The position numbers were made by a program, and so were the translations under genes. From IMG/VR virus record IMGVR_UViG_3300045988_180666: DNA of 31,872 bases; one strand, written 5' to 3'. The DNA is from a virus. Taxonomy: Duplodnaviria > Heunggongvirae > Uroviricota > Caudoviricetes. The notes under the pieces were generated by a model. It ran no database searches, was not told the DNA's origin, and worked only from the letters and a program-made list of their open reading frames with translations. This document shows positions 15,341-31,188 of this stretch, piece after piece (position 1 is the stretch's first letter; the number at the start of each line of letters is the position of its first letter).

Positions 15341-16024
15341 TTATAGCTTTCCTTTGTCGTGGTAGCTGTAGAAGCCATCCTCAGCCAAGATGATATGGTC
15401 CATCAAGAAAAGTCTCATCACCTCGCACGCCTTGGCTATCTTCTGCGTGAGCATATCGTCCGCCTTGCTCGGCTGCGTGCTGTTCGATGGGTGGTTGTGT
15501 GCCACGGCGATGATGGTTGCATTGTTGAGCACGGCTTCTTTCATTATCAGTCGAACGTCCACCGCTGTCTCGGTGATGCCTCCCTCGCTGAGCTTGGTGC
15601 ACTTTATCAGCCTAAAGTTTTGGTTCATCAGCACTACCCAAAAGCCCTCTGTCTCATTGCAGCCTATCATTGGGCGAAGATAGTTGTAGAGTGCCAGGCT
15701 GCTGCCTAGGTCGGTGTTTCTCGCTACCTTTTCCATTTGGTAGCGTCTGCCTAGCTCGATGGCTGCCTGTAGGGCTATCGCCTTGCAGTCTCCAATTCCT
15801 GGTACCACTTCCAGGTCTTCTATTCTCGCCTTGCCGATGTTGCGAAGCGAGTTGCCCATGATGTTATAAATCTGTCGTGCCTGCTCTTGGCTGTCCTTGG
15901 TACCTGCCCCTCTGTTGATTACCAAAGAAATCAAGTCAACGTTGGTAAGGGTGTCGAAACCTTGGTTATAGGCTCTGTACTGCGGTCTCTCCTCCATACA
16001 AAGATTGTTATAATTTTGTCTCAT
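15341..16024 (-). CDS. radC: RadC-family JAB/MPN domain protein
   Basis: 227 aa. The N-terminal part is HhH-like (LEVVPGIGDCKAIALQAAIELGRR). The C-terminal JAMM motif is intact: E in ETEGFWVVLMN, then AHNHPSNSTQPSKADDMLT (HxHx7SxxD). Confidence 0.85.
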   Translation of the reverse strand: MRQNYNNLCMEERPQYRAYNQGFDTLTNVDLISLVINRGAGTKDSQEQARQIYNIMGNSLRNIGKARIEDLEVVPGIGDCKAIALQAAIELGRRYQMEKVARNTDLGSSLALYNYLRPMIGCNETEGFWVVLMNQNFRLIKCTKLSEGGITETAVDVRLIMKEAVLNNATIIAVAHNHPSNSTQPSKADDMLTQKIAKACEVMRLFLMDHIILAEDGFYSYHDKGKL

Positions 16025-16039
16025 ATCTTTTGTTATTTG

Positions 16040-16564
16040 TTAGTTATACATTCTCTTTGTTCTCGCTAGGAACATCGCTCCCATCACTTGTGCGCCACAT
16101 TCGGCTAGCTCGTTGGCGAACTCTCGGGCGGTCGCTCCGCTCGTCACCACGTCGTCGAAGATGATGACTTTCTTTCCGCTGAAGTACTCTCTATCGAGTG
16201 CCACTCTGTAGTCGAAGCTCTCACACACTCTGTCTGTGCTGAAGTGCTTGGCTGTGCGCTCTCCATAGATGGAAATGTGCTCGTTTCCGTTCTGTACCTT
16301 TGCGCCTTGGCTCACCTTTTGGGCGAAGCGAGAAAAGCGCTTGGTGTACTTCTTTGAGTTGGCTGCTGGAGCGCAAACCATCACGAAGTCGCTGGCTTTG
16401 TCGCCATAGGTGTTGACGAAAGAGCTGACCACCATATCGGCAGCTGCGTCTGTCGCCCACTGCTTTCCATCCTTGAAGGCAAAGATGAAGTTTCTCACTT
16501 GCTCTGCTTGTGCTGAGCGGTCGAAACGCTTGGAGCTGTACTCGTAATAATTGAAAGTTTTCAT
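16040..16564 (-). CDS. ComF-like phosphoribosyltransferase (PRTase) domain protein
   Basis: 174 aa. Canonical PRPP-binding loop KKVIIFDDVVTSGATAREFANELAECGA. The upstream segment VCAPAANSKKYTKRFSRFAQKVS resembles the ComF-type R.F.Q region. No N-terminal Cys4 zinc finger is present. Only 15 nt separate it from radC. Confidence 0.8.
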   Translation of the reverse strand: MKTFNYYEYSSKRFDRSAQAEQVRNFIFAFKDGKQWATDAAADMVVSSFVNTYGDKASDFVMVCAPAANSKKYTKRFSRFAQKVSQGAKVQNGNEHISIYGERTAKHFSTDRVCESFDYRVALDREYFSGKKVIIFDDVVTSGATAREFANELAECGAQVMGAMFLARTKRMYN

Positions 16565-16745
16565 ACGCTTAAAATTTTTATTCTAGCCAGAGGGAGGAAG
16601 GAGCTTTTTTATTTGAACTCGTCTTTGCCTGCCCGTCTGAGAGTTTTTTTTATTCTGTCCGTCGGTCGTTTTTGTCGCTTTTTACGGTGCGATGCAGACG
16701 AGCGGAGAAGAGGTATGAAAGCCAAGGAATTTTGCAAAAAGTTTA

Positions 16746-17299
16746 TGGAAAACCGTCATCTCTGATTGCGGAAGGCTGCCGAAAAGTTTTTGGAAAATAG
16801 ATTTATCGGTACTTGGTGCATGCCGTCCGCCGTACCTTTGCACCCGAAAAAGAGATAATGACCGATGGATAACCGATAAAGGGAAAAGCTCTCGGACAGG
16901 AAAAGCGGGCAAAGAAAAGGCTCTGCCTTACCTTGGTGGTTAAGCCTTAGCGACGTTTGAGCGCCATCACGGTCACCACCGCTTGAAAATTCGCAAATTT
17001 TAACCCTAGCGTATGAAATGAAAGATGGAAAATTTGCGTCATCAAAAACACCATGTTTTTCAGACTTCAGGAGGAAAAACATACCTTGGAGCGATGAAAT
17101 CGCAGCATTTGGCATGCTTCGACCCCGAGGTTGAAGATGCCGAATGTGTCGTTTTGCGACAGGTTTTCCACACCCACGGATTGGAAAACCCCGATTTTAT
17201 CGTGGTTTTAGGGATTCAAAGGGAAAATAATTCCCCTTTGTCGGCGATAGCACCCCCCACCGCCCTACGCCCGAGCGCGCCTTCCGCCCCCTTGGAAAA
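16746..17299 (+). repeat. cluster of nine same-strand GGAAAA motifs (five as TGGAAAA) plus one inverted copy
   Basis: GGAAAA hexamers start at 16747, 16792, 16882, 16899, 17027, 17073, 17183, 17222 and 17294, with the inverted copy at 17164-17170. A further TGGAAAA lies at 15289-15295. Confidence 0.55.
16833..16840 (+). promoter_or_regulatory. plus-strand -7 box TACCTTTG inside the ORF-poor segment
   Basis: GTACCTTTGCAC (16832-16843) is identical to the 12-mer at 25902-25913. No good -33 box. Confidence 0.35.
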
Positions 17300-17359
17300 G
17301 ACGGAATATGTAAAAGACCGTTAACGTTTTTGTAGGAATGTAAAAAGCCAAAAGGCACG

Positions 17360-17392
17360 AAAAAAGGGAACACGCTTCGCAGCGCACTCCCC
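17360..17392 (-). terminator. intrinsic terminator after terL
   Basis: Minus-strand GGGAGUGCGC-UGCGAA-GCGUGUUCCC (10 bp including three G-U pairs, hence strand-specific) followed by U6. Confidence 0.7.
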
Positions 17393-17462
17393 TTATCGGC
17401 GGTCAAGCAAGAATGCCAGCCACCTAACTTATATAAGAATCGTACTATCTAAAGAAATCAAA

Positions 17463-24612: not shown

Positions 24613-25197
24613 TTAATCTTTGCTAAATCTTGTTGTAGATGTTAAATTTACGCCTCTTTTTGCGTGTTGATCACGCATTCTGTAGAAACATTGGCGTACG
24701 GTATCCTCGTAATCGATGCCAATGCCATGCTGTTCGCACCATGCCGAAATGAGCGATGAAAGCTTGCATGAGCGGTCGGCGATGTCTTTGAGCGAAGCCC
24801 AGAGATCCATCTTGAAGAGGTCGGAAATCATCTCTTTGACGGCACGTCTGGCACGTGGCCCGAGGTAGTTGTACTCTCGCACAGGCTTAGCCTTGGAGTC
24901 AGGCAGCTCGATGGCAAGATACTCTTCGGGATGGGTGAGCCATCGGCTCTGCTCGAACTCCTCGTCGTGGAAGGTATGCTTGACACTTTGGTGCAGTTGG
25001 CTGGCATCAGCCTGCTGCATCTCTTGGATGTTCTCTTGGTCGATAGGCGATAGGTTGACAACGGGAGGTCTGCTGGTGAACTTGCGGAGCACAGCCACCT
25101 CGTTGCCGATGGCAGGGAAGACCACTGGGTTGCCATAAGCTCGGTAAGCCCATTGTCTGATGTGGGTAGGAACTTTGATGTAAACAATTGGATTCAT
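24613..25197 (-). CDS. hypothetical phage protein, first gene of the late/head operon
   Basis: The track start at 25209 is TTG. The ATG at 25197 (MNPIVYIKVPTHIRQW...) lies about 20 nt downstream of the -7 box at 25218-25225 and gives 194 aa. Confidence 0.55.
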   Translation of the reverse strand: MNPIVYIKVPTHIRQWAYRAYGNPVVFPAIGNEVAVLRKFTSRPPVVNLSPIDQENIQEMQQADASQLHQSVKHTFHDEEFEQSRWLTHPEEYLAIELPDSKAKPVREYNYLGPRARRAVKEMISDLFKMDLWASLKDIADRSCKLSSLISAWCEQHGIGIDYEDTVRQCFYRMRDQHAKRGVNLTSTTRFSKD

Positions 25198-25217
25198 ATA
25201 GCTATGCAATTTTCGTG

Positions 25218-25225
25218 CAAAGATA
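25218..25225 (-). promoter_or_regulatory. -7 box TATCTTTG, candidate late/head operon promoter
   Basis: GCAAAGATA lies 21 nt upstream of the ATG at 25197. Confidence 0.55.
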
Positions 25226-25311
25226 CAAAGAAAATTTGAAATAACTAACGATAATCGGTAAAAACTAACTTTTATCAGTAAATTTGGTGTGATATAATTT
25301 CGTCCGAAAAG

Positions 25312-25600
25312 TTTGTATTTTTGTATCGTACAAACAAGGCTCTGTAACTAGCTGATAATCAATACTATTTTTGTGATACAATTTTCTGATACAGAAATTG
25401 TAACTCTTTAGCTTTTGTAACTTGGGGTTTTGTCGAGGTCGAAGACCTGTAGGAGAAGGGGCTTGTTACAAACTTGAAAAACTTTGTAACAGAGTTGTAA
25501 CGCAACTTTGTAAACATCGGCAAGGCGGCTTAACTCCATCTTTTATAATTATTTACCTCTTTTGCCAACATTATGTTACAGAGTTACAAAGGATTTGTAT
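25312..25600. repeat. iteron-like array of (T)TTGTAAC / GTTACAA(A) motifs
   Basis: TGTAAC-core copies were read at about 25343, 25398, 25415, 25484 and 25495, with a variant at 25508. Inverted copies lie at about 25465, 25575 and 25583. A TTTGTA-tcg-TACAAA palindrome lies at 25320-25334. Confidence 0.6.
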
Positions 25601-25734
25601 AAAATAAAAGAAAGGGGTGTGGGGAAAACGATGGCACGGGGCGTGAAGGAGGATAGGGAAGGCCCATCGAGACACCCAGGACACCCCCATTGGCCAATGG
25701 AGGGGTAGCGAGACGAAACATCGCCCATGGCAAC

Positions 25735-25770
25735 GAAAAAAGGGAGCGACGGCCAATGCGCATCGCTCCC
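25735..25770 (-). terminator. intrinsic terminator downstream of the primase-helicase gene
   Basis: Minus-strand GGGAGCGA-13 nt loop-UCGCUCCC followed by U6. Confidence 0.65.
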
Positions 25771-25878
25771 TCGTAACATGGGAAAAGAATTATAAATCAG
25801 CAAAAATCTGCCTATGAAATCAGCCCTCGTCTGCTTGCAAAAATAGTGAAAAATTGCTTGAAAATTTAGCCGAAAATA

Positions 25879-25910
25879 TTTGCATAATTCAGATATTTTT
25901 TGTACCTTTG
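25879..25910 (+). promoter_or_regulatory. plus-strand consensus promoter (-33 TTTG, 20-nt spacer, -7 TACCTTTG) pointing antisense into the primase 3' end
   Basis: TTTG at 25879-25882 and TACCTTTG at 25903-25910. Confidence 0.45.
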
Positions 25911-25951
25911 CACTATAACTTGGGGCTATCTATTCTATTATATATGGATGG

Positions 25952-28906
25952 CTAGAAAGGTTTATCACTATCTTTATCTACCTTGCTCCAGTCAATGGTA
26001 GATTGATATTCACCCCCAGCTGCAGGGACATCAGCCTTGGCAGCTTGTTTATCCTCTTTTTTATCATCACTCTTCTTGCTTCGGAGATAGATCATCTCGA
26101 CAGGGCTGCCGTCTGGGTTAGCTGGATCGCGTCTGATGATGCGGTGCTGGCTGTTGCAGAGATCAGCTGGGTTCAGCTCTTGGATGTATGGACACAGCTC
26201 GACGAAGGCTCTGAGCTTTTTGGTGAAGCTCTGTGTGGTCGCCTTGTTGATGCCTGAGAACTGCTTGAAGTCATTGAACGCACGCTCTCTCACGATAAAT
26301 GTATCGAGTCGCTCGCTCTCTTCTGAGAAGTAGGATGCAGCCCAGTCTTCGAAGTTGACACCCATGTCGGCCTTGAACTTGCGCTTGATGATGTTATCCA
26401 TCGGTGGCATGATCTTGATAGGTTCGCCAGCCAAGGAGAGATAGAAACGACAGCACTGCAGGAAAAAGTTGATGTCAGCATTCCACTCATCCTCAGTGTA
26501 TGTCTTTGAGAAGAGATCTTCGTCGAAGTCATCACGGATGCTTCGGGTCTCTTGGTAATCATTCTCCTCTGTGCGCTGATGGTAATAGTCGGAGAACACC
26601 ATATAGAGCAGTCTCGCCTCTGAGGAAGGGTCGAAGTCTGCCGGCACGTAGTTGGTGGTGAAGGCAATCTTCGGGCTATCCTCGAAAGGAATTGTGAAGC
26701 TCTGGTTGTTCTTTGGGTTGACTGTCATATCTGAAGTAATGTTATCGTAAAATAAACCTGTGTTGAGATAGCGGTCACAGTCATCGAGGAGCAGCATCTG
26801 GGTGTGCTGTGTCACCTGATCGAAGACGTGTGGGTTGTCCATCAGCTTAGGGTTGCGTCCGGAAAGCTTGACTGTTTTCATCAGCAGTGAAAGCGTCTTG
26901 AAGAAGAAACTCTTACCGGAACGGCCGTTGCACTCGTTGTTTTCACCAATCTTGTTGTCCATCGCCATCGGAGCCCAAGCCCTGGATGGTGCCTTGTAAT
27001 GATGGAGCATGTAGCCGAAGGTGAAAATCTTGTTTATCAAGTTCTGCTTTTGCTCTTGTATCTCGTTGTCGGCAAGCCCTTCGCCAGCGATGTCGAAGAG
27101 GTGTGCCTTGTGGTATGCCTCTTTCTCCTCGATGCTCTTGTCCTCAAAAGCATACTCTAGCTCTTTGCGCCAGTAGGTGCGAGAGGCGTTGATGAGATAG
27201 CCGAAGAAGTGGGACTTCACGTTCTTGACCTCGATGTCGAACTTCGGCCTGCCATCCTCGTCGATGGTTCGGGTGATGGAGAACATGTCATCCAACTTCT
27301 TGAAGTTGTGGTTGATGACATTCTCTTGCCAAACATAGTTTTTGAGCGAGCTGCCCTCACGCTGGTACTCGTTTAGTCCATCTTTGGTGACCTCGACGCT
27401 GACACGAGGGAAGAAGAACAACTGCGAGTGGTTGGTGTAGCTGGTGAAGTCTAGCGTAATCTCTTGGAGCGAGTCGAGCGCCGATGCCGACAGCTTTGGC
27501 GTGTTGAGCACCAAGTTAAGGATGTCACGCTTCTCAGCTCTCTCGATGACCCATTGGCGGCAGAACTCACGGATGTCTCTCGTGGTGATGAGCTTGACGA
27601 TGTTGCCCGTGATGCGAACATATTTGGTGATGGTCGAGTTGTCATCGTGCAAGGTATAGAAACCATTGAGACGAAGAAAATTGTAGAGGCACGCCGTGTC
27701 GATGTAGTGGTCCCAGGTGTTAGCCTTTTTGTTGAGCTTGCTCACCCAAAATCGGGCTGGCATCGCCAGTGTCATGAGGTTGCGGAAGTCTTTGCGAGTA
27801 TTGCGCAGCTCCATCCAGTCTCGCAGGTCTTTGCGCCCCTTGCCACGGTTGTCGTGGTAGGTGCGAAGCCAAGAAGGCAACCATATCGTATGGATGTCGA
27901 TGAAGCGCAGGGCAAGCTCTGTGCCCTTGGCGATGCCCGTCTCGTCGATGTCGGGTATATTGTAGAGCACCTCGACATACTTCATAATCTCTCGGTACTC
28001 CTCGTCGCTGAGCTTGTAGGTCTCGGAGTTGAACCATAACGGGTTGTAGCCCATGGAACGGCAGCAGAGACTGTCACGCTCGCCACTGCAGATGAAAGCC
28101 TCGGGAAGTTTCTTCTCCTTGTAAGGCTTGGACTCGTCTGTGTTGGTCTTGTTGTACTCAGCCTCTTCACGGCGGTTGAACTCGTGATAGGCAGCCTTCA
28201 GCTCAGCTAGGCCATTGATGTATTGCTTAGGCTTGATGCCGTCTGGGGTGTAAGAGAATCGCCACTGCTTTTGGTAGTTGAGAGGCTCATATATCTTGTA
28301 GAACTTAACCTCAGGCTTGTCGCCTTCAGCTGGGCGAACCAAGCACTCACGCATAAAGATAGGGTAGTGCTCGTTGCTGTGCTTAATCTTGACCTTGCGG
28401 TCTTTGACGTATCCTATCCACTTGGCGGAATGCCAGTTGAGCGCATCGACGTGCTCTTGCTTGACGTTTGGACCCAGTACCTTCAGTTCATCTTCGGTGA
28501 ACTTCTCGTTCAGCTCGAAAGGTCTGGTACCATCTTTCTCGTTGATGGTGGCATCACGCTCTGTGAACGTAGGCTTGTTGACCTCTTTTTTGAGTTCATC
28601 GCTAACGTTGTATTCGGAAGCCAGTCGCAGGATAGCATCAGGAAAGCGGTCGATGCACTTCTCTCTCATGTAGAGGTCGATAGGTGACTCGGCAGATCCG
28701 TCGCCGCCGAAGTCTGTCACTCGCCAGCAGTCTTTGAACTTTTTGAGACTGCAGGAAGGTGTTTTCTCATTGCGGATGGCAAAGTGCTTTTTAGGCGTGC
28801 CAGTCGTGCAATATTTCTGGATGCATTCTTTTGCGTCCGGGTATAGTGAGATGATGATGTCGAGACCATCATCTGTAGCTTGATAAATTTGTTCTGCTTT
28901 GATCAT
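25952..28906 (-). CDS. DNA primase (Toprim) fused to SF3 (P4/D5-like) helicase
   Basis: The track start at 28936 is TTG inside the promoter, so the ATG at 28906 (MIKAEQIYQATDDG...) is preferred. The Toprim-like segment is FICSGERDSLCC...LYNIPDIDETGIAKG. Walker A is ECNGRSGKSFFFK and Walker B is QMLLLDDCD. Confidence 0.8.
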   Translation of the reverse strand: MIKAEQIYQATDDGLDIIISLYPDAKECIQKYCTTGTPKKHFAIRNEKTPSCSLKKFKDCWRVTDFGGDGSAESPIDLYMREKCIDRFPDAILRLASEYNVSDELKKEVNKPTFTERDATINEKDGTRPFELNEKFTEDELKVLGPNVKQEHVDALNWHSAKWIGYVKDRKVKIKHSNEHYPIFMRECLVRPAEGDKPEVKFYKIYEPLNYQKQWRFSYTPDGIKPKQYINGLAELKAAYHEFNRREEAEYNKTNTDESKPYKEKKLPEAFICSGERDSLCCRSMGYNPLWFNSETYKLSDEEYREIMKYVEVLYNIPDIDETGIAKGTELALRFIDIHTIWLPSWLRTYHDNRGKGRKDLRDWMELRNTRKDFRNLMTLAMPARFWVSKLNKKANTWDHYIDTACLYNFLRLNGFYTLHDDNSTITKYVRITGNIVKLITTRDIREFCRQWVIERAEKRDILNLVLNTPKLSASALDSLQEITLDFTSYTNHSQLFFFPRVSVEVTKDGLNEYQREGSSLKNYVWQENVINHNFKKLDDMFSITRTIDEDGRPKFDIEVKNVKSHFFGYLINASRTYWRKELEYAFEDKSIEEKEAYHKAHLFDIAGEGLADNEIQEQKQNLINKIFTFGYMLHHYKAPSRAWAPMAMDNKIGENNECNGRSGKSFFFKTLSLLMKTVKLSGRNPKLMDNPHVFDQVTQHTQMLLLDDCDRYLNTGLFYDNITSDMTVNPKNNQSFTIPFEDSPKIAFTTNYVPADFDPSSEARLLYMVFSDYYHQRTEENDYQETRSIRDDFDEDLFSKTYTEDEWNADINFFLQCCRFYLSLAGEPIKIMPPMDNIIKRKFKADMGVNFEDWAASYFSEESERLDTFIVRERAFNDFKQFSGINKATTQSFTKKLRAFVELCPYIQELNPADLCNSQHRIIRRDPANPDGSPVEMIYLRSKKSDDKKEDKQAAKADVPAAGGEYQSTIDWSKVDKDSDKPF

Positions 28907-28933
28907 AATTCTTTTCCATTGTAAATTTGCTTG

Positions 28934-28964
28934 CAAAATTATTGCAAAGCGAGTTCAAAACAAA
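28934..28964 (-). promoter_or_regulatory. promoter of the primase-helicase gene (-33 TTTG, 19-nt spacer, -7 TAATTTTG)
   Basis: Plus-strand CAAAATTA at 28934-28941 and CAAA at 28961-28964. The ATG at 28906 is downstream. Confidence 0.6.
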
Positions 28965-29798: not shown

Positions 29799-29806
29799 TA
29801 ATTTTG
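29799..29806 (+). promoter_or_regulatory. -7 box TAATTTTG, candidate rightward promoter for the repressor gene
   Basis: The plus-strand TAATTTTG is separated by 3 nt from the leftward -7 box. The repressor ATG is at 29903. Confidence 0.4.
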
Positions 29807-29902: not shown

Positions 29903-30280
29903 ATGTTTAATGGTCAGATAATCAGAAAGTTAATGTCGGATGCTGGCTTAACTAAAAAAGAGTTTGAAAGACGTATGTTCGGTAGTAAATCGACCGACCT
30001 CAACCATTTGGAAAAAGCGAAGAATCTTCGCAGTGACACTCTCGAACGTCTGCGTGATGTGTTGAAGTGCTCTATGGATGACTTCTTTACAGCACCCTCA
30101 TGGGCTGAGAACGGAAAGGGGACAGTCGTAGGCTCTAACAATGTGCTGTCAACAGTAGCCATCGGCAACGAAGTGATGGAAGCCCAATATCTCAAGGAGT
30201 TGCTCTTGGAGAAGGACAAACGCATCAGCACTTTGGAAAATTATATCAAGCTTCTGGAGACTAACTTAAATAAGGACTAA
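29903..30280 (+). CDS. XRE-family HTH regulator, putative prophage repressor
   Basis: 125 aa, the only phage gene on the plus strand and divergent from the early operon. The N-terminal HTH is IIRKLMSDAGLTKKEFERRMFGSKSTDLNHLEKAKNLRSDTLERLRDVLKCSMDDFF. The C-terminal part is a coiled coil (QYLKELLLEKDKRISTLENYIKLLE). Confidence 0.75.
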   Translation: MFNGQIIRKLMSDAGLTKKEFERRMFGSKSTDLNHLEKAKNLRSDTLERLRDVLKCSMDDFFTAPSWAENGKGTVVGSNNVLSTVAIGNEVMEAQYLKELLLEKDKRISTLENYIKLLETNLNKD

Positions 30281-30510
30281 TACGAAACATAATTCGTAAG
30301 ATGAATCCTTATATATAATAAGGTGTATAAAATATATCGTATAATCTCAGCAGTGATATCCAACTCGTTAGTCCTGCCGCCGCAACTAGTTTCGGGTAAG
30401 AAGTTGGTAAACAACATCTTATCCGATTTCTGTTTTTCTATTGGAACTATATCAGAACGAAATACTTTCCATTCCACATTCCTTTGATATTCAATATTTA
30501 ACACTTATTA

Positions 30511-30542
30511 TTTGCGTATATTGAATAAAAGTGCTACTTTTG
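30511..30542 (+). promoter_or_regulatory. host TetR gene promoter (-33 TTTG, 20-nt spacer, -7 TACTTTTG)
   Basis: TTTG at 30511-30514 and TACTTTTG at 30535-30542. The ATG at 30592 follows. Confidence 0.55.
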
Positions 30543-30565
30543 CACATTGATAATTTATTGTGCAA
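30540..30565. promoter_or_regulatory. 7-bp perfect inverted repeat TTGCACA-N12-TGTGCAA overlapping the TetR -7 box / start site (likely autoregulatory operator)
   Basis: Read directly: arms at 30540-30546 and 30559-30565. Confidence 0.5.
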
Positions 30566-30591
30566 CCAAATCTCGATGGAGGTACTTCGTT

Positions 30592-31188
30592 ATGTCAATA
30601 TCAAAAACTAGACAGAAATTAGTGGATGTCGCTCGACAACTCTTTGCAAAGAACGGAATCGCCAATACAACGATGAATGACATCGCTGTGGCTTCTGGTA
30701 AGGGACGTCGCACGCTTTATACCTATTTTAGTCGTAAGGAGGACGTCTATTACGCAGTGATAGAGTCGGAATTGGAGCGCCTTTCTGACAAACTTGACGA
30801 AGTGGCCGCCAGTAAGATTCGACCTCAAGACAAAATCATCGAATTGATTTATACCCACTTGAGCATGATCAAGGAGACTGTTGTCAGAAATGGAAATCTG
30901 AGAGCTGAGTTCTTCCGCAATATTTGGATGGTGGAAAAGGCTCGCAAGAATTTCGATGAAGACGAGATAGAACTTCTCAGGAAGGTTTATTCCGAGGGCA
31001 AGGCGGACGGCGAGTTTGACATCGATAATGTAGATTTGGTGGCTGACATCACACACTATTGCATCAAAGGTCTCGAAGTTCCGTTTATCTATGGGCGATT
31101 GGGACATGGCTTGAACGTGGAGTCGAGCAAACCGCTGGTTGCCAAGGTTGTCTATGGTGCTTTAGGAAAGTCGGGAATGAAGTTGTAA
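30592..31188 (+). CDS. TetR/AcrR-family transcriptional regulator (host)
   Basis: The track start at 30547 is TTG; the ATG at 30592 gives MSISKTRQKLVDVARQLFAKNGIANTTMNDIAVASGKGRRTLYTYF, the canonical TetR N-terminal HTH. A consensus promoter and a palindrome lie just upstream. Confidence 0.85.
   Translation: MSISKTRQKLVDVARQLFAKNGIANTTMNDIAVASGKGRRTLYTYFSRKEDVYYAVIESELERLSDKLDEVAASKIRPQDKIIELIYTHLSMIKETVVRNGNLRAEFFRNIWMVEKARKNFDEDEIELLRKVYSEGKADGEFDIDNVDLVADITHYCIKGLEVPFIYGRLGHGLNVESSKPLVAKVVYGALGKSGMKL

What the first reader, a model, noticed from the sequence alone, without database searches (positions are those of the whole stretch)
25879..25951. Consensus plus-strand promoter firing antisense into the primase gene, sharing a 12-mer with the promoter-like box in the ORF-poor segment
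TTTG-N20-TACCTTTG (25879-25910) matches the Bacteroides consensus better than most of the phage's own sense promoters. Yet it points rightwards into the 3' end of the minus-strand primase-helicase gene (stop at 25952), with no plus-strand ORF behind it. The 12-mer GTACCTTTGCAC (25902-25913) recurs exactly at 16832-16843, again on the plus strand in non-coding DNA. Two identical antisense-oriented promoter cores suggest co-regulated antisense or non-coding RNAs. One example would be a lysogeny-expressed antisense RNA that damps replication-gene expression.
Basis: partly seen in the sequence, partly recalled or inferred. Interest (0 to 1): 0.5.

Follow-up and report, generated by a model that had tools for sequence, protein, structure and literature searches.

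The report
Conserved antisense promoter behind phage primase gene
A prophage family of the gut bacterium Segatella copri carries a small, strongly conserved promoter just past the end of its DNA primase-helicase gene, pointing back into that gene; it most likely makes a non-coding antisense RNA, a known kind of phage control device that has not been described for this host group.

Summary
**Observation: confirmed.** TTTG-N20-TACCTTTG lies at 25879-25910 (+). It points into the 3' end of the minus-strand ORF 25952..28936. The 12-mer recurs exactly at 16832-16843 (+).

**Interpretation: partly supported.**
- The element looks like a real Bacteroidota sigma-ABfr-type promoter.
- Across 21 distinct relatives, the stretch from -33 to +15 is 97-98% identical. 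The flanks, including the ORF's 3' coding end, are only 71-89% identical.
- A second clade has a different sequence but the same boxes, the same 20-nt spacer, the same orientation and the same position.
- No plus-strand ORF is conserved behind it.
- The first ~35 transcribed nt form a hairpin that is stable only on the plus strand.
- The promoter and hairpin form a ~130-nt accessory insert between the stop codon and the gene's intrinsic terminator. One 99%-identical relative lacks it, and so do more distant clades.

**Best reading:** a lambda-OOP-like cis-antisense RNA against the primase-helicase mRNA 3' end.

**Not supported:** the shared 12-mer is not an antisense signature. It is the generic extended -7 consensus. 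GTATCTTTGCAC sits at two sense promoters, and outside the core sites A and B are 26% identical. The 3' end of the RNA, its timing and its effect are unknown. Nothing here shows transcription.

The parts
25879..25910 (+). Promoter P_as: -33 TTTG (25879-25882), 20-nt spacer, -7 TACCTTTG (25903-25910).
   Evidence: Searches give the sequence and motif. Mean pairwise identity is 97% over 21 distinct relatives, against 71-89% in the flanks. The same boxes and 20-nt spacer occur in a sequence-divergent clade.
25902..25913 (+). 12-mer GTACCTTTGCAC. It is the extended -7 element, not a special signature.
25915..25918 (+). Predicted transcription start (an A, 5-8 nt after the -7 box). The invariant +1 region 25911-25927 surrounds it.
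   Evidence: Inferred from the published consensus geometry (PMC7366714). The +1 region is 98% conserved. The start is not mapped.
25924..25953 (+). 5'-proximal stem-loop of the predicted RNA. The stems are 25924-25933 and 25944-25953. The 3' arm covers the complement of the stop codon.
   Evidence: The + strand folds at -13.3 kcal/mol (z -2.9); the - strand at -1.7 (z 0.1). Over 19 distinct sequences in two clades the mean z is -1.8 on + and -0.5 on -. A consensus fold exists only on +. Covariation is not significant.
25822..25951 (+). Accessory module (upstream A/T-rich region, promoter and hairpin) inserted between the stop codon and the terminator.
   Evidence: In L004 (99% aa identity), 25822-25952 is replaced by 8 nt. 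The module is absent in L045-L080 and L221-L225, where the stop is followed directly by a terminator or by a gene.
25952..28936 (-). Target gene: a DnaG-type primase fused to a D5-like SF3 helicase. The likely start is the ATG at 28906, and its own promoter lies at 28964-28934.
   Evidence: Pfam, NCBIfam and PDB sequence searches gave no hit; PHROGs matched only an unannotated family. The AlphaFold model with Foldseek matched 1eqn DnaG core (E 2e-5) and D5/E5 helicase (E 1e-4).
25733..25771 (-). Intrinsic terminator of the primase-helicase transcript. The stems are 25763-25771 and 25741-25749, followed by a T-run on the minus strand. The promoter therefore lies inside the mRNA 3' UTR.
   Evidence: (inverted repeat I1 pair I21: 9 nt, 100% complementary) and the sequence. 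It is conserved in relatives, with mismatches that are G.U only on the minus strand.
26019..26064 (+). Candidate plus-strand terminator: hairpin 26019-26044 plus U-rich tail. It would give an RNA of about 130-150 nt.
   Evidence: It is present only in the window subclade, because a 21-nt stretch is absent elsewhere. Weak.
16832..16843 (+). Site B: the second copy of the 12-mer (-7 box 16833-16840) in the conserved non-coding segment 16565-17460.
   Evidence: The TA..TTTG positions are kept while the two free (nn) positions vary across clades. The -33 is poor. The RNA strand is undecided.
25215..25226 (-). Sense promoter -7 element GTATCTTTGCAC of gene 24613..25209. It serves as the comparator showing that the 12-mer is generic.
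   Evidence: core 94% conserved.

Best explanation
**What it is**
- 25879-25910 is a functional promoter for the primary Bacteroidota sigma factor (sigma-ABfr type).
- It belongs to a ~130-nt accessory module.
- The module sits between the stop codon of the primase-helicase gene and that gene's intrinsic terminator, so it lies inside the mRNA's 3' UTR.

**What it makes (inferred)**
- It fires rightwards from about 25915-25918 and makes a non-coding RNA.
- The RNA starts with a short single-stranded leader and a ~30-nt stem-loop.
- From its first base onward it is perfectly complementary to the 3' UTR and the 3' coding end of the primase-helicase mRNA.

**How it would act (inferred)**
- It acts in cis as an antisense RNA of the lambda OOP type.
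- The duplex with the mRNA 3' end is cut, which removes the protective terminator hairpin and exposes the message to decay.
- Convergent transcription may add interference.
- The net effect is less primase-helicase.

**Shown versus inferred**
- Shown: the motif, its conservation, its orientation, the absence of an ORF and the strand-specific hairpin.
- Inferred: transcription, the extent of the RNA, its timing (lysogeny or late lytic) and its effect on the target.
For: **The motif marks real promoters in this phage**
- The full consensus occurs 6 times against 0.4 expected.
- Four of the six sit directly upstream of same-strand genes.

**Conservation island that exactly covers the promoter**
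- From -33 to +15, identity is 97-98% and 29 of 33 columns are invariant.
- The last 60 nt of the ORF are 71% identical and the hairpin 77%.
- This is at least as strong as the sense promoter core at 25215-25226, which is 94%.

**A second clade (L201-L204, L206, L207)**
- It keeps TTTG, a 20-nt spacer of variable sequence and TACCTTTGCA.
- The orientation is the same, and the element lies about 65-70 nt from the stop.

**Non-coding product**
- No plus-strand ORF is conserved.

**Strand-specific hairpin**
- The hairpin between the start and the stop codon is stable only on the plus strand.
- Changes within it are mostly U-A to U-G.

**Geometry and context**
- The minus-strand terminator lies beyond the promoter, so the mRNA contains the complement of the RNA's 5' end.
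- Cis-antisense RNAs with sigma-ABfr promoters are common in Bacteroides: 24% of TSSs are antisense, and there are 78 cis-antisense RNAs (PMC7366714).
- The lambda OOP geometry and mechanism are described in PMC5869508.
Against: - There are no expression data of any kind.
- No conserved plus-strand terminator exists. A candidate appears only in the window subclade.
- Formal covariation in the hairpin is not significant, and the consensus fold is weak at -1.7 kcal/mol.
- The module is dispensable in nature. It is absent in L004 and in the more distant clades.
- The spacer is invariant in the close clade. That could mean a protein-binding site rather than, or in addition to, a promoter.
- L205 carries the clade-2 module as a free-standing unit next to an unrelated gene. 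This fits an RNA with a function of its own better than a primase-specific antisense.
- A short conserved island could in principle reflect recent exchange rather than selection.
Confidence: 0.45

Rival explanations
1. It is a free-standing small-RNA gene (a phage 'moron') with a trans target in the host, the phage or a competitor. The conserved single-stranded 5' leader and the hairpin are the functional part. Its overlap with the primase-helicase 3' end is a by-product of where it was inserted.
For: - In L205 the clade-2 promoter and its invariant leader TTAAATTGCCTTTTT are followed by a hairpin and a strong bidirectional terminator about 126 nt downstream. The unit lies next to an unrelated 1233-aa gene.
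- The module behaves as a discrete insert.
- The first ~15 transcribed nt are invariant within each clade. A pure cis-antisense RNA does not need that.
Against: - Only one free-standing copy was found among 7 clade-2 hits.
- The window-type 24-mer occurs only at the primase position, in 46 viral contigs and 2 S. copri MAGs.
- The primase-adjacent copies have no conserved terminator.
- No trans target was identified.
Confidence: 0.17
2. It is a DNA-level element of the replication or regulatory region. One version is an operator-like site for a phage regulator that overlaps a promoter-like sequence. Another is a promoter whose role is to activate or prime an adjacent origin by transcription, rather than to make a regulatory RNA.
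For: - The spacer is invariant in the close clade and contains an imperfect palindrome, AAAATATTTGCAT/ATTCAGATATTTT (I13).
- TCAG is kept at the same spacer position in both clades.
- A conserved cluster of TTGTAAC/GTTACAA repeats lies 300-500 nt away in the same intergenic region, next to the primase-helicase gene.
Against: - The conserved positions are exactly the -33 and -7 boxes at the canonical 20-nt spacing. In clade 2 the spacer sequence varies.
- The element is absent from many relatives that must still replicate.
- No origin has been mapped.
Confidence: 0.13
3. It is a promoter-like sequence without a selected function. That could be a relic of a lost plus-strand gene, or spurious antisense initiation in AT-rich DNA that is conserved by hitch-hiking or recent recombination.
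For: - The authors of the B. thetaiotaomicron map suggest that part of the observed antisense transcription may be due to random promoters (PMC7366714).
- The module is dispensable.
- The close clade is only moderately diverged.
Against: - The island is far better conserved than both flanks, including coding DNA.
- A divergent clade keeps the boxes, the spacing and the position while the rest changes.
- The strand-specific hairpin follows in both clades.
- The chance of a full consensus motif in a 215-nt 3' UTR is about 0.001, scaled from 0.4 per window on both strands.
Confidence: 0.15
4. It is a lambda-PRE-like establishment promoter. A long plus-strand transcript would run antisense through the primase-helicase gene and the small early genes (about 4 kb). 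It would then reach the plus-strand Cro/CI-HTH, TetR and integrase genes.
For: - It lies on the same strand as the lysogeny genes.
- No convincing plus-strand terminator lies between 25917 and 28790.
Against: - A 4-kb antisense leader would be needed.
- The HTH and TetR genes have -7 boxes of their own at 29799-29806 and 30535-42.
- The promoter is near-consensus rather than activator-dependent.
- Terminator-like hairpins on the plus strand at 28795, 29188 and 29709 lie in the path.
Confidence: 0.05

Closest known systems
Phage lambda OOP RNA (pO-oop-tO)
   Same: - The promoter lies just downstream of the target gene and is convergent with it.
- The RNA is complementary to the 3' end of the target and the adjacent untranslated mRNA. 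In lambda, 52 nt overlap cII, and cleavage is RNase III-dependent and falls outside the ORF (PMC5869508).
- It sits at the edge of the replication module of a temperate phage.
- It is dispensable for growth.
   Different: - There is no sequence relation.
- The promoter uses a different sigma factor.
- The target is a primase-helicase, not a lysogeny activator.
- OOP has a defined terminator and a 77-nt length (my own knowledge). Here the 3' end is unknown and no terminator is conserved.
- RNase III dependence is untested.
Bacteroides cis-antisense RNAs (the DonS family and the 78 cis-antisense RNAs mapped in B. thetaiotaomicron)
   Same: - They use the same promoter type.
- They are non-coding RNAs of about 80-130 nt that repress the overlapped gene (PMC7366714).
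   Different: - DonS-type RNAs are divergently encoded at the 5' end of susC genes in chromosomal PULs.
- This element is convergent, at a 3' end, in a prophage of Segatella.
- There is no sequence or Rfam match.
Phage P22 sar RNA and P1/P7 c4 RNA (antisense control in temperate phages; my own knowledge)
   Same: They are small phage-encoded antisense RNAs that limit expression of a lytic-cycle gene, including in lysogens.
   Different: They act at or near translation start regions of antirepressor genes. Here the overlap is with a 3' end.
Lambda PRE transcript (antisense through cro; my own knowledge)
   Same: A lysogeny-strand promoter fires antisense into a lytic gene.
   Different: PRE is activator-dependent, lies close to its coding target and encodes cI. 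Here about 4 kb would have to be crossed.
Phage morons (my own knowledge)
   Same: It is a discrete insert with its own promoter between two conserved features, present in some relatives and absent in others.
   Different: Morons usually carry a protein gene and a terminator and run in the same direction as their neighbours.

Membership tests
Bacteroidota sigma-ABfr-type promoter | -7 element TAnnTTTG | tested here: met
   TACCTTTG at 25903-25910. The consensus is as quoted in PMC7366714.
Bacteroidota sigma-ABfr-type promoter | -33 element TTTG at about 19-21 nt from the -7 element | tested here: met
   TTTG at 25879-25882 with a 20-nt spacer. The spacer is 20 nt in every clade-2 member. A few close relatives have CTTG.
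Bacteroidota sigma-ABfr-type promoter | The boxes are conserved more than the spacer and flanks across relatives | tested here: met
   In the close clade the spacer is invariant too.
Bacteroidota sigma-ABfr-type promoter | A transcript 5' end a few nt downstream | not testable with these tools
   No transcriptome data are available here.
OOP-type 3'-end cis-antisense RNA | The promoter lies downstream of the target ORF, is convergent with it, and sits inside or next to its 3' UTR | tested here: met
   The stop codon is at 25952-25954, the promoter at 25879-25910 and the mRNA terminator at 25733-25771.
OOP-type 3'-end cis-antisense RNA | A non-coding product | tested here: met
   No plus-strand ORF is conserved.
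OOP-type 3'-end cis-antisense RNA | A short RNA ended by its own terminator inside the target gene | tested here: inconclusive
   A hairpin with a U-rich tail at 26019-26064 occurs only in the window subclade. Weak T-rich candidates lie at +115 to +133 elsewhere. The simple scan finds none.
OOP-type 3'-end cis-antisense RNA | Duplex-dependent cleavage or decay of the target mRNA | not testable with these tools
   This needs RNA work in the host and an RNase III mutant.
Bacteroidales invertible promoter (inverton) | A promoter inside a segment bounded by near-perfect inverted repeats, with a recombinase nearby | tested here: not met
   The only long inverted repeat (25210-25263 with 25865-25918, 70%) is made of the two promoters themselves. 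Outside the core it is no more similar than other promoter pairs, at 47%. Inverting it would change nothing.
Type I toxin-antitoxin pair | A small conserved toxin ORF overlapped by the antisense RNA | tested here: not met
   There is no conserved small ORF on either strand between 25822 and 25951. The overlapped gene is a 984-994-aa enzyme.
Any Rfam family or tRNA-like element | A covariance-model match | tested here: not met
   No gathering-score hit in the window. Only chance-level hits at E above 3 in 25150-26300. No tRNA or tmRNA.

The most novel reading that the evidence does not exclude
The promoter and leader-hairpin module is a mobile small-RNA gene family of Segatella/Prevotella temperate phages. 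It would have been inserted, in two sequence versions, precisely between the stop codon and the terminator of the primase-helicase gene, and once as a free-standing unit. There it would act as the switch that shuts off phage replication, either keeping a prophage quiet or timing the early-to-late transition. That would make it the first regulatory RNA defined for phages of this abundant gut genus.
Probability: 0.25. Interest if true: 0.6.

Novelty: new member of a known kind. Interest (0 to 1): 0.4.

Why it matters
Segatella (Prevotella) copri is one of the most abundant human gut bacteria, and almost nothing is known about how its prophages are regulated.

- **If the RNA is made:** it would give a concrete, easily testable handle on replication control or lysis-lysogeny control in this phage family. 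A 130-nt module is involved, and a natural deletion variant already exists.
- **Wider point:** it would extend 3'-end antisense control of the lambda OOP kind to Bacteroidota phages.
- **Practical caution:** in Bacteroidota DNA, a shared 'TACCTTTGCAC' is not evidence of common regulation. It is simply the strong-promoter consensus.

Tried and rejected
**Known RNA families.** Rfam at gathering and permissive thresholds, and tRNA/tmRNA scans, found nothing.

**Homology between sites A and B beyond the 12-mer.** There is none. Only scattered 7-13-mers are shared, and outside the core the sites are 26% identical.

**Promoter A as a duplicate or inverted-repeat partner of the sense promoter at 25215-25263 (possible inverton).** Rejected. 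Its 47% identity outside the core equals that of other promoter pairs.

**A plus-strand small protein.** Rejected. The ORFs differ in length and are interrupted among relatives.

**The 10-mer TAACTTGGGG shared by the +1 region and 25418.** Not significant, and not conserved outside the window subclade.

**A conserved plus-strand terminator.** Not found.

**Formal covariation in the hairpin.**
- Not significant with 6 clade-2 sequences.
- Register shifts blur the close-clade alignment.

**Strand of the conserved structures in site B.** Undecidable. Consensus energies are -118 on one strand and -124 on the other, and G.U counts are similar.

**Annotated phage records.** Only one short unrelated match at the window's end.

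**Sequence-profile identification of the 'primase'.** It failed. The fold search succeeded.

**Procedural error.** One viral scan was wasted on a mis-spaced pattern.

**More distant primase homologues.** L221-L225 were examined for the same architecture, and it is absent there.

Full report
**1.

- On the plus strand, TTTG (25879-25882), a 20-nt spacer and TACCTTTG (25903-25910) are present as described.
- GTACCTTTGCAC occurs at 25902-25913 and again exactly at 16832-16843.
- The minus-strand ORF 25952..28936 ends 41 nt to the right of the -7 box.
- The full motif TTTG-N18-22-TAnnTTTG is found 6 times in the window against 0.40 expected. TAnnTTTG alone is found 37 times against 12.2.
- Four of the six full motifs lie directly upstream of same-strand genes: 13715-46(-), 15143-74(-), 28934-64(-) before the primase ATG at 28906, and 30511-42(+) before the TetR gene. 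The motif therefore marks real promoters in this genome.
- This is the published consensus of the primary Bacteroidota sigma factor (PMC7366714).

**2. Whose DNA this is**

- A 24-mer from the site occurs in two Segatella copri MAG contigs and in 46 IMG/VR viral contigs. All are the same phage family, with one copy each.
- The window is essentially identical to IMGVR_UViG_3300045988_187506.
- The plus strand carries a Cro/CI-type HTH gene and a TetR gene.
- In relative L022 a 412-aa tyrosine integrase follows on the same strand.
- The family is therefore temperate. The lysogeny genes are on the plus strand and the lytic genes on the minus strand.

**3. The target gene**

- The 994-aa ORF hit nothing in Pfam, NCBIfam or PDB sequences. 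PHROGs matched only an unannotated family. All of its more than 1000 homologues are unnamed.
- An AlphaFold model (pLDDT 75) matches the E. coli DnaG primase catalytic core (E 2e-5).
- It also matches poxvirus D5/E5 and NrS-1 SF3 helicases (E 1e-4).
- 'Primase-helicase' is therefore right, on the basis of fold.

**4. Conservation**

- I fetched 80 relatives through the C-terminal half of the protein.
- In about 36 of 43 close relatives (88-100% aa identity), the 32-mer is identical and lies 44-47 nt from the stop.
- Over 21 distinct sequences, mean pairwise identity varies by region:

| Region | Mean pairwise identity |
|---|---|
| -33 to -7 | 97% |
| +1 region 25911-25927 | 98% |
| Hairpin region | 77% |
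| Last 60 nt of the ORF | 71% |
| Upstream DNA | 78% |

- The island is at least as sharp as that of the sense promoter core at 25215-25226, which is 94%.
- A second clade of six viral contigs is quite diverged in sequence. It keeps TTTG, a 20-nt spacer of variable sequence and an invariant TACCTTTGCA.
- That clade also keeps an invariant leader TTAAATTGCCTTTTT and a hairpin, in the same orientation, just before the stop codon.
- Conserved boxes at fixed spacing with a changing spacer are the footprint expected of a promoter. An RNA or protein-coding element would not leave it.

**5. What lies around it**

- On the minus strand, a 9-bp GC-rich stem (25763-25771 with 25741-25749) followed by a T-run is the terminator of the primase-helicase transcript.
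- The promoter therefore sits inside the 3' UTR of the mRNA.
- The segment 25822-25952 is a discrete module. In L004 (99% aa identity) it is replaced by 8 nt.
- In L045-L080 and in more distant homologues (L221-L225, 61-68% identity), the stop codon is followed directly by another gene or by a terminator. No antisense promoter is present there.
- The module is thus an accessory insert, present in two of at least five sampled clades.

**6. The predicted RNA**

- No plus-strand ORF is conserved.
- From about 25917 the plus strand folds into a 10-bp stem-loop (25924-25953) at -13.3 kcal/mol, z = -2.9. The minus strand of the same stretch gives -1.7, z = 0.1.
- In 19 distinct sequences from both clades, the plus strand is always the more stable. 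Mean z is -1.8 on plus against -0.5 on minus.
- RNAalifold finds a consensus stem only on the plus strand.
- Changes are mostly U-A to U-G, which are tolerated only on the plus strand.
- Formal covariation is not significant, so I treat the hairpin as moderate evidence.
- The 3' end is open. A hairpin with a U-rich tail at 26019-26064 exists only in the window subclade.
- Elsewhere there are only weak T-rich candidates at +115 to +133. The simple scan finds no plus-strand terminator up to 28790.

**7. The 12-mer argument fails**

- GTATCTTTGCAC sits at two sense promoters, 15140-51(-) and 25215-26(-).
- All 12 candidate -7 boxes are followed by C, 9 by CA and 5 by CAC.
- Outside the core, sites A and B share 26% identity, the lowest of all promoter pairs.
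- Even the 17-mer TACCTTTGCACTATAAT precedes ordinary genes in unrelated Bacteroidota phages.
- The 12-mer is the strong-promoter consensus, not a mark of co-regulation.
- Site B does keep TA..TTTG while the two free positions vary (TACCTTTG or TAAATTTG) across clades of 78-99% identity. It may also be a promoter.
- However, its -33 is poor. The 900-nt conserved, hairpin-rich, non-coding segment around it could not be assigned to a strand.

**8. Mechanism**

- The best-supported reading is a cis-antisense RNA of the lambda OOP kind.
- In lambda, pO lies just past cII and fires back into it. 52 nt of OOP overlap the cII 3' end, and RNase III-dependent cleavage outside the ORF leads to loss of the message (PMC5869508).
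- Here the RNA would pair with the 3' UTR and the 3' coding end of the primase-helicase mRNA. That would separate the message from its terminator hairpin. Convergent transcription may add interference.
- Such RNAs are common in Bacteroides: 24% of TSSs are antisense, there are 78 cis-antisense RNAs, and half have this promoter type.
- Timing is unknown.

**9. Rivals**

- **Trans-acting small RNA.** L205 carries the clade-2 promoter and leader as a free-standing unit with its own strong terminator, next to an unrelated 1233-aa gene. The first ~15 transcribed nt are invariant within each clade. Both facts fit an RNA with a function of its own.
- **DNA-level element.** The spacer is invariant and carries an imperfect palindrome in the close clade, and a TTGTAAC repeat cluster lies nearby. 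These keep open a protein-binding or origin-linked role.
- **Non-functional promoter.** This is made unlikely by the conservation pattern.
- **PRE-like long leader to the lysogeny genes.** This is unlikely because about 4 kb would have to be crossed.

**10. Verdict**

- The feature is real and conserved, and the sequence evidence points to a functional promoter.
- It is probably a new member of a known kind, in a poorly studied phage-host system.
- Nothing here proves transcription.

Noticed in passing
window 25340-25600: A cluster of TTGTAAC/GTTACAA heptamers in both orientations. It holds 6 of the window's 10 copies, against 2.3 expected for the whole window. It lies between the primase-helicase terminator and the next operon. 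The cluster (3-7 copies) is kept in all subclades. These are candidate iterons or operator sites.
   Followed up: partly
window 25290-25325: A short island that is 96-99% conserved among 34 distinct relatives. It lies about 70-100 nt upstream of the -7 box of gene 24613..25209. Its function is unknown, and it might be a regulator site for that promoter.
   Followed up: no
window 25610-25735: A GC-rich stretch containing the palindrome ACACCCCCATTGG/CCAATGGAGGGGT. It lies just beyond the terminator and is unlike the AT-rich rest of the intergenic region. It was not analysed.
   Followed up: no
window 16565-17460: An approximately 900-nt segment without conserved ORFs but 78-99% conserved across clades. 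It has many conserved hairpins and some compensatory changes. A clear minus-strand terminator of the 533-aa terminase-like gene lies at about 17365-17392, and a minus-strand terminator-like hairpin lies at 16908-16929. It could be a large non-coding RNA, a packaging site or an origin. The strand is undecided.
   Followed up: partly
L083 and L096, at the position of window ~17347: An insertion of about 50-90 nt carrying tandem GACTTGGTACGGA-like repeats inside the conserved non-coding segment.
   Followed up: no
window 28898-28929 (+): A sixth full-consensus promoter motif overlaps the start of the primase-helicase gene. It faces the other way, back-to-back with the gene's own promoter (28964-28934, -). 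It would transcribe antisense to the small minus-strand early genes upstream.
   Followed up: no
window 29903-31188 (+); L022 552-3286: The lysogeny module lies on the plus strand: a Cro/CI-type HTH and a TetR-family regulator. In L022 there is also a 412-aa tyrosine integrase. The window probably ends inside the integrase gene.
   Followed up: partly
L205 300-481: The clade-2-type promoter and leader occur as a free-standing unit of about 130 nt. It ends in a strong bidirectional terminator, convergent with an unrelated 1233-aa gene (weak CotH hit).
   Followed up: partly
window 16040-16564 (-) and 15341-16024 (-): A phosphoribosyltransferase-domain protein and a 'DNA repair protein' PHROG member lie directly after the non-coding segment. 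This is an unusual pair for the position between a terminase-like gene and the rest of the structural genes.
   Followed up: no
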